A DNA stretch of 64,000 bases from the human T2T-CHM13v2.0 reference genome, Homo sapiens. The notes beneath the pieces were generated by a model. The model saw only the letters and a program-made list of their open reading frames with translations. It made no database searches and had not been told where the DNA came from. The DNA is taken from the NCBI RefSeq assembly GCF_009914755.1, contig NC_060940.1. One strand, 5' to 3'. Both the position numbers and the translations under genes were made by a program. Below, in pieces: positions 44,109-46,043 of this stretch (position 1 is its first letter; each line of letters starts with the position of its first letter).

Positions 44109-44360
44109 ATGGTGCCCCAGGCCTTGCTGACTCCACACACTGGAGATGAGACTACCCATAACCACCCTTCCCAGCAGGCCCTCCACTCTCCCTCTGACTC
44201 ACCCTTCCCAGCTCCAGAGAAGGCAACACCGAGGGAGGCCCAGCACCACAGTCCATGGCAGACACATGGTTCAGACTTGGCTGATTGATCTAAGAAACTT
44301 TATTGCTCAGAACCTTCCCTCCCTGGGCAATGGAAAGAGCTTTGGAGACCAGCCCATGGG
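44109..44360. repeat. Arm A of a ~245-bp inverted duplication, spanning the VKORC1 poly(A) signal and downstream flank
   Basis: Manual alignment to the reverse complement of 45790-46043, ~27 differences. Confidence 0.93.
44299..44304 (-). terminator. VKORC1: VKORC1 poly(A) signal AATAAA
   Basis: tttatt on +, ~260 nt after the stop codon. Confidence 0.85.
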
Positions 44361-44561
44361 GACAGAGTCAGAGGCACTGGGTGTAAAAAAGAGCGAGCGT
44401 GTGGCACATTTGGTCCATTGTCATGTGCGGGTATGGCAGGAGGAGGGGGTAATCTAGAAGCCCCACATCTAGGGCCTTCTAGGGACCCAGATATGCCCCC
44501 TTAGGCAAGGCTCACATGCCAAAGCAAAGCAGATGAGGTCAGCCTGGCTTGGGTTGAGGGC

Positions 44562-44770
44562 TCAGTGCCTCTTAGCCTTGCCCTGGGGTTCTTGGACCTT
44601 CCGGAAACTGAGCCACATCAGGCTCACGTTGATAGCATAGGTGGTGATACAAACAATGCAGAAATCATAGAGCACGAAGAACAGGATCCAGGCCAGGTAG
44701 ACAGAACCAGCGAGAGACACCAGGGAGCTCAGCAGCATCAGGACAGAGGCCCAGCGTGTCCGCAGGCAAC
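44562..44770 (-). CDS. VKORC1: Vitamin K epoxide reductase complex subunit 1, exon 3 (CIVC redox motif)
   Basis: [16 protein letters not shown]...[13 protein letters not shown]...KAKRH*; 173+110+209 nt = 163 aa + stop. Confidence 0.97.
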
Positions 44771-44894
44771 CTGCAAGGCAGAAGAGGGTCCGGTGTGGGC
44801 TTCAGGCACTGGCCACCTCCCGAACACTCCATGATGTCACTGCACTACCTAGATGCCAGGAGCTGCTGGGAAGGGTCTCTAAAACAAGAGGCTC

Positions 44895-45773
44895 CAGGGC
44901 AGATGTGGTGGCTTACGCACGTATTCCAAACACTCTGGGAGGCCGAGGTGGGAAGACTGCTTTAGGCTAGGAGTTCAAGACCAGCTTGGGCAACATAGAA
45001 AGACCCGATCTCTATCAAAAATTTAGAAATTCAGCTGGGCACGGTGGCTCATGCCTGTAATCCCAGTATTTTGGGAGGCCAATGGGGGTGGATCACCTGA
45101 GGTTAGGAGTTCGAGAGCAGCCTGGCCAACATGGCAAAACCCCATCTCTAATAAAAATACAAAAATTAGCCGGGTGTGTTGATGGGCACCTGTAATCCCA
45201 GCTGCTGGGGAGGCTAAGGTGGAGAATCGCTTGAACCTAGGAGGTGGAGGTTGCAGTGAGCCGAGATCATGCCACCACATTCCAGCTTGGGCAGCAAGAG
45301 CAAGACTTCGTCTCAAAAAAAAAATGCCCGGTGAGGTTGACTCACGCCTGTAATCCTAGCACTTTGGGAGGCCAAGGCGGATGGATCACCAGGTCAAGAG
45401 ATTGAGACCATCCTAGCCAACATGGTGAAACCCTGTCTCCACTAAAAATACAAAAATTAGCTGGGCGTGGTGACACGCGCCTGTAGTCCCAGCTACTCAG
45501 GAGGCTGAGGCAGGAAAATTGCTTGAACCCGGGAGGCAGAGGTTGCAGTGAGCCAAGATCGTGCCACTGCACTCCAGCCTGGTGACAGAGCGAGACTATG
45601 TCGCAAAAAAAAAAAAAAAAAAAAAAAAAAAAATTAGCTGGGTGCAGTGACATGCCTATAGTCCTAGCTACTCAGGAGGATCGCTTGAGCCAGGTTACAG
45701 TGAGCTATGATTGTGCCACTGCACTCCAGCCTGGGCAACAGAGCAAGATTATTTCTTAAAAAAAAAAAAAAAG
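44895..45773 (+). mobile_element. Nested Alus in VKORC1 intron 2
   Basis: An Alu split by two further full Alus. Confidence 0.9.
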
Positions 45774-45789
45774 AAGGCTTCAACAGGTC

Positions 45790-46043
45790 CCCTCCAAGGG
45801 ACTGGTCTCTGAAGCTCTTGCCATTGCCCAGGGAGGGAAAGTTCTGAGCAATAAAATTTCTTAAATAAATCGGCCAAGTCTGAACCATGTGTCAGCCAGG
45901 ACCGTGGTGCTGGGCCTCCCTCAGTGATGCCTTCTCTGGAGCTGGGAAGGGTGACTCAAAGGGAGCGTGGGAGCCTGCTGGGAAGGGTGGTAATGGATAG
46001 TCTCATCTCCGGCATATGGCATCAGCAAGGCCTGGGGCGCCAT
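45790..46043. repeat. Arm B of the inverted duplication, in VKORC1 intron 2
   Basis: Reverse complement of 44109-44360; carries + strand AATAAA at 45850 and 45864. Confidence 0.93.

What the first reader, a model, noticed from the sequence alone, without database searches (positions are those of the whole stretch)
44109..46043. Inverted copy of the VKORC1 poly(A) region inside its own last intron: candidate RNA switch that masks 3'-end processing
Seen: 44109-44360 aligns to the reverse complement of 45790-46043 over ~245 bp with ~27 differences by hand count (~89%, many transitions). It is not Alu/MIR/LTR-like to my eye. Arm A covers the last ~80 nt of the VKORC1 3'UTR, the AATAAA (44299-44304), the expected cleavage site and ~170 nt of downstream sequence. 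Arm B lies in intron 2. In the minus-strand pre-mRNA the arms are complementary and enclose exon 3 plus its acceptor (loop ~1.4 kb, ~0.55 kb without the Alus at 44895-45773). Inference: a long duplex could hide the PAS/downstream element and loop out the terminal exon. That would couple intron-2 splicing kinetics to 3'-end formation and favour read-through, and the duplex would be an ADAR substrate.
Basis: partly seen in the sequence, partly recalled or inferred. Interest (0 to 1): 0.8.

Follow-up and report, generated by a model that had tools for sequence, protein, structure and literature searches.

The report
Inverted copy of VKORC1 3' end
The last intron of the human warfarin-target gene VKORC1 holds a backwards copy of the gene's own end signal, which could pair with the real one in unspliced RNA, but nothing yet shows that this changes how the gene is expressed.

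Summary
Window 44095-44360 (arm A) matches the reverse complement of 45794-46057 (arm B) at 231 of 264 aligned positions, with 2 gap columns. Arm A holds the last 79 nt of the 3'UTR, the AATAAA, the cleavage site and 187 nt downstream.

It is not a dispersed repeat. In the 3.1-Gb assembly the sequence occurs only at the two arms and, for the transcribed part, in two processed VKORC1 pseudogenes. Arm B is therefore a DNA-level local inverted duplication. It is about as diverged (K2P 0.14) as the retrocopies are from their parent (0.10 and 0.12).

At thermodynamic equilibrium the arms pair and bury the AAUAAA.

Nothing I could run shows function. The G:U excess on the transcribed strand is not significant (14 of 22 transitions, p=0.14). 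The retrocopies show independent changes in both arms. Inverted Alu pairs of equal strength are common in this window (24 of the 25 longest pairs). None of the 10 full-text searches found the element.

My best reading is a neutral, probably primate-age inverted duplication that behaves like an inverted-Alu pair. A real poly(A)-masking role remains possible, at about 0.15. The common variant c.283+837T>C lies inside arm B.

The parts
44095..44360 (-). Arm A: the genomic 3' end of VKORC1. It holds the last 79 nt of the 3'UTR (44360-44282) and 187 nt downstream of the cleavage site (44281-44095).
   Evidence: alignment. RefSeq exon 3 ends at 44282 (annotation given with the finding). Retrocopies end here.
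44299..44304 (-). Poly(A) signal AATAAA of VKORC1. In the folds it pairs with 45850-45855 of arm B.
   Evidence: Sequence. Pairing partners. P(unpaired) 0.004 or less with arm B against 0.12-1.0 without it.
44282..44288 (-). Cleavage and polyadenylation zone, 12-17 nt after the hexamer.
   Evidence: RefSeq end is 44282. The chrX retrocopy's A-tail starts after ...TTCTTAGAT.
45794..46057 (-). Arm B: the inverted copy of arm A inside intron 2. On the + strand it reads as the sense 3' end, including AATAAA at 45850-45855. In the VKORC1 pre-mRNA it is the antisense of arm A.
   Evidence: It has no A-tail and it includes sequence from downstream of the cleavage site, so it is not a retrocopy.
44361..45793 (-). 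The 1433-nt spacer or loop. It holds the rest of exon 3 (to 44770), the intron-2 acceptor at 44771 and a cluster of '+'-oriented Alu sequences at about 44902-45773.
45904..45904 (-). Position of the common intron-2 variant NM_024006:c.283+837T>C, inside arm B. This assembly has C, which pairs with the G at 44249 of arm A. The T allele would give a U:G wobble.
   Evidence: Coordinate arithmetic and base checks. The variant is listed in PMC8007013 (passages).

Best explanation
A 264-bp stretch of genomic DNA spanning the VKORC1 poly(A) site was duplicated in inverted orientation into intron 2. The event was DNA-level, not retroposition and not a transposon. My inference is that it happened tens of millions of years ago. 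Arm A is taken as the original because it is continuous with the functional 3'UTR. Both copies have since drifted independently. In nascent VKORC1 RNA, arm B is transcribed about 1.4 kb before arm A. It is still present when the poly(A) signal emerges, because intron 2 cannot be spliced before its acceptor is made, about 470 nt earlier. The two arms can therefore form a long imperfect duplex of 231 Watson-Crick and 14 G:U pairs. I judge that in vivo it behaves like the many inverted-Alu pairs of human pre-mRNAs. That means a transient nuclear double-stranded region in a fraction of unspliced or read-through molecules, probably edited by ADAR. It would have at most a small kinetic effect on cleavage and no selected regulatory role. 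What is shown: the anatomy, the uniqueness in the genome, the thermodynamic capacity to pair, and the lack of a detectable selection signal. What is inferred: the age, the direction of copying, and in vivo pairing, editing and effect size.
For: Uniqueness: whole-assembly DNA searches with arm A, with arm B and with the downstream-only part find only the two arms plus two partial hits. The partial hits are processed pseudogenes, 90% identical over mRNA positions 6-834 and 238-838, and both end at the mRNA 3' end. The chrX copy carries a long A-tail there.

Not a retrocopy: arm B carries 187 nt from beyond the cleavage site and has no A-tail.

Drift: K2P between the arms is 0.139 (0.113 without CpG). 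It is similar in the 3'UTR part (0.156, 79 sites) and the downstream part (0.131, 185 sites). It is comparable to retrocopy-versus-parent 3'UTR distances of 0.097 and 0.120.

Polarisation with the two retrocopies shows derived changes in arm A (for example AATAAAG against AATAAAA, and CTCTTTCC against CTCTTGCC) and in arm B. At no site do both arms agree against both retrocopies.

G:U pairs versus A:C mismatches on the transcribed strand split 14 to 8 among 22 transitions, one-sided p=0.14.

Ordinary duplex strength: 286 inverted pairs of at least 70 nt within 4 kb occur in this 64-kb window. Of the 25 longest (174-315 nt, 72-93% complementary), 24 are Alu pairs.

The site works: the RefSeq-selected transcript and both retrocopies end at the site inside arm A (annotation).
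Against: The equilibrium model strongly favours the duplex: -491.5 kcal/mol, and -124.5 kcal/mol even for the 79 nt upstream of the cleavage site alone. It buries the hexamer completely. If pairing is fast in vivo, the effect on cleavage need not be small.

The minus-strand RNA duplex is 25 kcal/mol more stable than the plus-strand one, which is the direction expected under selection on the transcript.

A VKORC1-PRSS53 read-through transcript (ENST00000529564) is annotated (PMC6764479, passages), although that paper's RT-qPCR did not detect it.

The selection tests here have very low power: 22 transitions and a 76-nt outgroup overlap. No orthologous sequences could be examined.
Confidence: 0.6

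Rival explanations
1. The arm B-arm A duplex is a functional cis-acting RNA element. While intron 2 is unspliced it sequesters the AAUAAA, the cleavage site and the downstream element and loops out exon 3. This delays cleavage, couples 3'-end formation to intron-2 removal, and raises read-through toward PRSS53, whose start is 1.9 kb downstream on the same strand.
For: The PAS and the whole core poly(A) region lie within the duplex. P(unpaired) of the AAUAAA bases is 0.004 or less with arm B, against 0.12-1.0 with arm B absent or shuffled. In the MFE, 72 arm-arm pairs form even when the RNA is truncated at the cleavage site. The element is unique and not a transposon. A read-through VKORC1-PRSS53 transcript is annotated (PMC6764479). 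Stable structures that occlude a PAS are known to inhibit processing (recalled: HIV-1 5' poly(A) hairpin work). Long-range pairings have been linked to 3'-end processing (PMC8052449, abstract and passages).
Against: There is no significant strand-specific G:U bias (p=0.14). No compensated sites appear against the retrocopy outgroups. Divergence is equal in the 3'UTR and downstream parts. The masked site is still the end of the RefSeq-selected transcript. Equilibrium folding ignores kinetics, RNA-binding proteins and helicases. PMC6764479 did not detect the read-through transcript by RT-qPCR. Seven VKORC1-specific full-text searches found no report of editing, intron retention or structure at this site.
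Confidence: 0.15
2. Arm B acts on the other strand. Read on the + strand, it is an intact copy of a working poly(A) region: AATAAA twice at 45850-45871, followed by a GT-rich stretch. It could terminate antisense transcription running through the VKORC1 gene body, for example upstream-antisense transcripts from the PRSS53 promoter.
For: The + strand of arm B keeps the hexamer and downstream TGTGTC/GTGGTG motifs. It retains the ancestral AATAAAA state shared with both retrocopies.
Against: No + strand gene or transcript is annotated across this interval in the table supplied with the finding. Retention of a 6-nt motif over this divergence is easily chance. I had no expression data.
Confidence: 0.05
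3. The two arms are independent insertions of an old dispersed repeat, so the complementarity is incidental repeat content.
For: None was found. The only caveat is that the genome search skips very common words and scores only the best candidates (tool note).
Against: Three whole-assembly searches, two of them at E up to 10, return only the two arms and two VKORC1 retrocopies. The downstream-only segment has exactly 2 places, which are the arms. Overlap with Alu-like HSPs is 0%, and no Rfam hit falls in the arms. Arm A is collinear with the gene's own 3'UTR as preserved in the retrocopies.
Confidence: 0.02

Closest known systems
Inverted Alu pairs (IRAlus) in human introns and 3'UTRs
   Same: They have two arms of about 200-300 nt, 80-93% complementary, within a few kb in one pre-mRNA, and are able to form long imperfect nuclear dsRNA. 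In this window 24 of the 25 longest inverted pairs are of this kind. That such pairs are ADAR substrates is recalled knowledge.
   Different: The arms here are single-copy sequence, not a transposon. One arm is the gene's own poly(A) region, so pairing would directly cover the AAUAAA, the cleavage site and the downstream element.
Poly(A)-signal occlusion by RNA structure (HIV-1 5' poly(A) hairpin; inhibition of polyadenylation by stable hairpins).
   Same: The hexamer and cleavage site sit inside a stable helix. The proposed effect is reduced recognition by the cleavage and polyadenylation machinery.
   Different: Those are short local hairpins with experimental proof. Here the helix is about 264 bp, spans 1.4 kb, depends on an unspliced intron, and is untested.
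Pairs of conserved complementary regions (PCCRs) and their proposed link to 3'-end processing (Kalmykova et al. 2021, PMC8052449; abstract and passages seen)
   Same: Both are long-range intramolecular pre-mRNA pairings that enclose 3' ends. The hypothesis there is a coupling of folding, splicing and cleavage/polyadenylation.
   Different: PCCRs are defined by evolutionary conservation of both arms, are much shorter, and their 3' ends lie in the loop. Here conservation is untested and the PAS is in the stem. VKORC1 does not occur in that paper's text or its 3 held supplementary files. The full catalogue was not among those files.
Processed VKORC1 pseudogenes on chrX and chr1 (loci L003, L004)
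   Same: They carry the same 3'UTR end sequence, 92-93% identical over about 75 nt, and are of similar age by divergence.
   Different: They are intronless copies of the mRNA that stop at the cleavage site (the chrX copy with a long A-tail). Arm B continues 187 nt past the site, has no tail, and lies in cis and inverted.

Membership tests
Dispersed repeat / transposable element | Many related copies elsewhere in the genome | tested here: not met
   The whole-assembly searches return 4, 4 and 2 places only: the arms and two VKORC1 retrocopies. The tool warns that counts are lower bounds for very common words.
Dispersed repeat / transposable element | Similarity to Alu/SRP-derived sequence | tested here: not met
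   Neither arm overlaps any of the 99 Alu-like HSPs in the window. Rfam SRP-like hits lie only at 44902-45759 and 46193-46297.
Processed retrocopy (for arm B) | Ends at the poly(A) site with an A-tail and contains only transcribed sequence | tested here: not met
   Arm B includes the 187 nt downstream of the cleavage site and has no A-tail.
Local inverted segmental duplication | Two copies of otherwise unique sequence in cis, in opposite orientation, with sharp homology boundaries | tested here: met
   Searches give the alignment. One search shows no extension of homology beyond the ends. Searches show uniqueness.
PAS-occluding RNA structure | The hexamer and cleavage site are base-paired in a stable helix | tested here: met
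   Met in silico only. In the MFE, 44304-44299 pairs with 45850-45855 in all 4 constructs. P(unpaired) is 0.004 or less.
PAS-occluding RNA structure | The structure measurably lowers cleavage/polyadenylation | not testable with these tools
   This needs minigene or CRISPR experiments with 3'-end sequencing.
Conserved long-range pre-mRNA structure (PCCR type) | Both arms conserved across species, with compensatory changes | not testable with these tools
   No non-human eukaryote genomes are reachable. The within-genome proxy (two retrocopies as outgroup, 76 nt) shows no compensated site.
ADAR-edited intramolecular dsRNA | A long intramolecular duplex with arms within a few kb | tested here: met
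   231 Watson-Crick and 14 G:U pairs of 264, with a 1433-nt loop, and -491.5 kcal/mol.
ADAR-edited intramolecular dsRNA | A-to-I editing clusters observed in the arms | not testable with these tools
   No editing database is available. Full-text searches for VKORC1 with 'RNA editing' and with 'ADAR' gave nothing relevant (listings seen, and passages of PMC9692299).

The most novel reading that the evidence does not exclude
A gene carries, in its last intron, an antisense decoy of its own poly(A) site. As long as intron 2 is unspliced, the decoy clamps the AAUAAA, the cleavage site and the downstream element into a roughly 264-bp helix. Terminal-intron splicing then licenses 3'-end formation. 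Slow splicing diverts polymerase into read-through toward PRSS53, or shields the downstream cleavage product from the 5'-3' exonuclease that triggers termination. Because the common variant c.283+837T>C lies in the decoy, the element would also become a candidate contributor to the VKORC1 expression haplotype that sets warfarin dose.
Probability: 0.12. Interest if true: 0.7.

Novelty: new member of a known kind. Interest (0 to 1): 0.35.

Why it matters
VKORC1 is the target of warfarin, and its expression haplotype is a main determinant of dose. If the inverted copy affected 3'-end formation, it would be a clean, single-copy example of a gene regulating its own poly(A) site through an intronic antisense copy. 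It would also place a haplotype-tagging intron-2 variant, c.283+837T>C, inside a functional RNA element. It would be easy to test, because deleting arm B touches no exon.

If the element is neutral, as I think more likely, it is one more long nuclear dsRNA of the kind that inverted Alus provide by the thousand. Its main practical value would then be as a caution for read mapping, editing calls and primer design at this pharmacogene.

Tried and rejected
(1) Dispersed repeat: rejected by three whole-assembly searches and an Alu-likeness check.

(2) Retrocopy origin of arm B: rejected, because it has downstream sequence and no A-tail.

(3) A larger original duplication continuing past the Alu cluster or beyond the outer ends: local alignments scored 9-11, against shuffle maxima of 12-15.

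(4) A known RNA family in the arms: Rfam at E up to 1 gave 12 hits. Eleven were Alu/SRP-like or Alu-derived miRNA-like, and one was a weak sRNA hit in exon 3. None fell in the arms.

(5) Strand-specific G:U excess as a sign of selection: 14 against 8, p=0.14, not significant.

(6) Retrocopies as an outgroup to find compensated sites: none in 76 nt. The sample is too short to be decisive.

VKORC1 was searched with 'inverted repeat' (6 papers), 'RNA editing' (15), 'polyadenylation' (30), PRSS53/'readthrough' (35 with at least 2 of 3 terms), 'ADAR' (34), 'intron retention' (7), and 'intron 2' plus 'RNA secondary structure' (0). Only listings were seen, apart from the passages noted here. None describes this element. 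Two apparent hits were about VKORC1L1 and one was only a reference-list entry.

(9) Comparative genomics could not be done. The genome tools hold only this assembly and prokaryotes.

Full report
**1. The observation**

The inverted repeat is real and slightly larger than described.
- The repeat finder gives three collinear inverted blocks, 44256-44360/45794-45898, 44183-44254/45899-45970 and 44095-44179/45973-46057, at 84-92% complementarity.
- A gapped local alignment joins them into 261 columns: 228 matches, 31 mismatches (22 transitions, 9 transversions) and 2 single-base gaps.
- The global alignment of 44095-44360 with the reverse complement of 45794-46057 has 264 aligned positions, of which 231 are complementary.
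- Against the whole 3.1-Gb assembly the arm-to-arm match has E = 6.2e-84, so chance is excluded.
- Homology stops sharply at both ends. Local alignments of the flanks score 9-11, no better than shuffled controls, whose maxima are 12-15.

**2. Anatomy**

On the minus strand, which is the VKORC1 sense strand:
- Arm A runs from 44360 to 44095.
- AATAAA is at 44304-44299.
- The RefSeq transcript ends at 44282.

Arm A is therefore the last 79 nt of the 3'UTR plus 187 nt of downstream flank, including GT-rich stretches.

Arm B (46057 to 45794 in transcript order) lies in intron 2 and is the antisense of arm A. The 1433-nt spacer holds the rest of exon 3, the intron-2 acceptor and a cluster of '+'-oriented Alu sequences at about 44902-45773.

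**3. What it is**

It is not a dispersed repeat.
- Searching the whole assembly with arm A, with arm B and with the downstream-only part of arm A gives 4, 4 and 2 places. The last two searches were run at E up to 10.
- These places are the two arms plus, for the transcribed ~75 nt only, one site on contig 23 (chrX) and one on contig 1 (chr1).
- Those two sites are processed VKORC1 pseudogenes. They align to the spliced mRNA over positions 6-834 and 238-838 at 90% identity.
- Both stop within a few bases of the annotated 3' end. The chrX copy has a long A-tail there; the chr1 copy runs into a short A-rich stretch.
- The arms show 0% overlap with the 99 Alu-like HSPs of the window, and no Rfam hit falls in them.

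Arm B carries sequence from beyond the cleavage site and has no A-tail, so it arose at the DNA level as a local inverted duplication, not by retroposition. Arm A is continuous with the functional 3'UTR, so I take it as the original. That is an inference.

**4. Age and mode of evolution**

- K2P distance between the arms is 0.139, or 0.113 without CpG positions.
- It is alike in the 3'UTR part (0.156, 79 sites) and the downstream part (0.131, 185 sites).
- It is close to the distances of the two retrocopies from the parental 3'UTR, 0.097 and 0.120.
- With long-term primate neutral rates near 1e-9 per site per year (recalled), this puts the duplication at some tens of millions of years, if no gene conversion has occurred.

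This estimate is inference. It could not be checked, because no other eukaryote genome is reachable.

**5. Tests for selection on pairing**

- Each transition between the arms gives G:U in one strand's RNA and A:C in the other's. On the transcribed (minus) strand, 14 of 22 transitions give G:U (one-sided binomial p=0.14). The duplex has 231 Watson-Crick, 14 G:U and 19 mismatched positions on the minus-strand RNA, against 231, 8 and 25 on the plus-strand RNA.
- The duplex energies are -491.5 and -466.2 kcal/mol respectively. The direction fits selection, but it is not significant.
- I used the two retrocopies as outgroups over the 76-nt overlap. Arm A has its own derived states (T in CCCCATGG, T in CTCTTTCC, G directly after the hexamer). 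Arm B has its own too (an inserted A, and A in GGGAAAGTT).
- One ancestral CpG decayed differently in each arm.
- At no site do both arms agree against both retrocopies.

This is what independent drift predicts, but the sample is tiny.

**6. Capacity to pair**

- In minimum-free-energy folds of intron 2 plus exon 3 plus 230 nt downstream (2691 nt), 241 arm-arm pairs form, and the hexamer pairs with 45850-45855.
- Truncating the RNA at the cleavage site still gives 72 arm-arm pairs.
- The 79-nt 3'UTR tail alone binds arm B at -124.5 kcal/mol.
- In partition-function folds, P(unpaired) of the six hexamer bases is 0.001-0.004 in the native 2051-nt region. It is 0.12-1.0 when the intron is absent or arm B is shuffled.

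These are equilibrium calculations. They follow almost automatically from the complementarity and say nothing about kinetics, proteins or helicases.

**7. Context that tempers the interest**

- Within this 64-kb window there are 286 inverted pairs of at least 70 nt within 4 kb.
- The 25 longest are 174-315 nt at 72-93% complementarity, and 24 of them are Alu pairs.
- VKORC1's own pre-mRNA has '+' Alus in intron 2 facing a '-' Alu in intron 1 (47171-47423). In read-through RNA they also face a '-' Alu at 43531-43792.

Long imperfect intramolecular duplexes are thus routine here. What is unusual is only that this one is single-copy and that one arm is the gene's own poly(A) region. The site inside arm A is nonetheless the end of the RefSeq-selected transcript and was the end used for both retrocopies.

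**8. Literature**

None found a description of this repeat, or of editing, intron retention or RNA structure at it. Mostly only listings were seen.
- Three apparent hits were irrelevant.
- PMC6764479 (passages) lists an annotated read-through fusion transcript, ENST00000529564, with parents PRSS53 and VKORC1. It reports that RT-qPCR did not detect it.
- PMC8052449 (abstract and passages) provides the nearest general framework: long-range conserved pairings and a hypothesised link with cleavage and polyadenylation. VKORC1 is absent from its text and its 3 held supplementary files. The full catalogue was not among them.

**9. A variant inside arm B**

- By exon arithmetic, c.283+837 falls at window 45904, inside arm B, at a CpG.
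- This assembly has C on the transcript strand, pairing with the G at 44249. The T allele would give a U:G wobble.
- The same arithmetic gives allele-consistent bases at c.283+124, c.174-136, c.*134 and c.-1639.
- PMC8007013 (passages) lists c.283+837T>C with population frequencies roughly complementary to those of c.-1639G>A: 0.643 against 0.326 globally, and 0.102 against 0.900 in East Asians.
- That this variant is rs2359612, a tag of the warfarin-dose haplotype, is recalled. The passages seen do not give the rs number.
- One wobble in a 264-bp helix should matter little.

**10. Verdict**

The element is a genuine, previously unremarked (in the searched literature), non-transposon inverted duplication of the VKORC1 poly(A) region.
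- Best reading (0.6): neutral, and equivalent to an inverted-Alu pair.
- Interest 0.35.

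Noticed in passing
window 45904 (pairs with 44249): The common VKORC1 intron-2 variant c.283+837T>C maps inside arm B at a CpG. CHM13 carries C (a C:G pair), and T would give U:G. Its population frequencies roughly complement those of c.-1639G>A in PMC8007013 (passages). 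Its identity with rs2359612 is recalled.
   Followed up: partly
window 49805; Alu at 49505-49819 (minus orientation): By arithmetic from the ATG, the promoter variant c.-1639G>A falls at the 5' edge of a minus-oriented Alu (sense context TGGCCGGGTGC). That Alu forms a 315-nt, 83% inverted pair with the Alu at 48477-48791, upstream of the VKORC1 start.
   Followed up: no
window 46212-46295: The alternative VKORC1 exon listed for other transcripts lies wholly inside a '+'-oriented Alu (SRP-like Rfam hit at 46193-46297; Alu HSPs at 46207-46436). It is therefore an antisense-Alu exonisation in intron 2, just upstream of arm B in transcript order.
   Followed up: partly
window 48321-48815 (LOC124903680 predicted CDS): More than half of the predicted 'zinc finger protein-like' coding region overlaps an Alu (48499-48766). 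The model looks like an Alu-derived open frame rather than a real gene.
   Followed up: no
L003 (G000 contig 23, about 27.455 Mb) and L004 (G000 contig 1, about 58.107 Mb): These are two processed VKORC1 pseudogenes, 90% identical to the mRNA. The chrX copy is nearly full length with a long A-tail. The chr1 copy starts at mRNA position 238. They are useful as outgroups for the 3'UTR.
   Followed up: yes
window 44886-44898 and 45775-45789: By eye, the sequences flanking the whole Alu cluster look alike (AAGAGGCTCCAGG against GAAGGCTTCAACAGG). They may be a decayed target-site duplication. If so, the Alu cluster was inserted only about 5 nt from the inner edge of arm B, and the pre-Alu loop was about 0.54 kb. 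I did not test this statistically.
   Followed up: no
window 43531-43792 and 47171-47423: Minus-oriented Alus lie downstream of the VKORC1 poly(A) site and in intron 1. They face the four '+' Alus of intron 2 and give competing or additional long duplexes in unspliced or read-through RNA.
   Followed up: no
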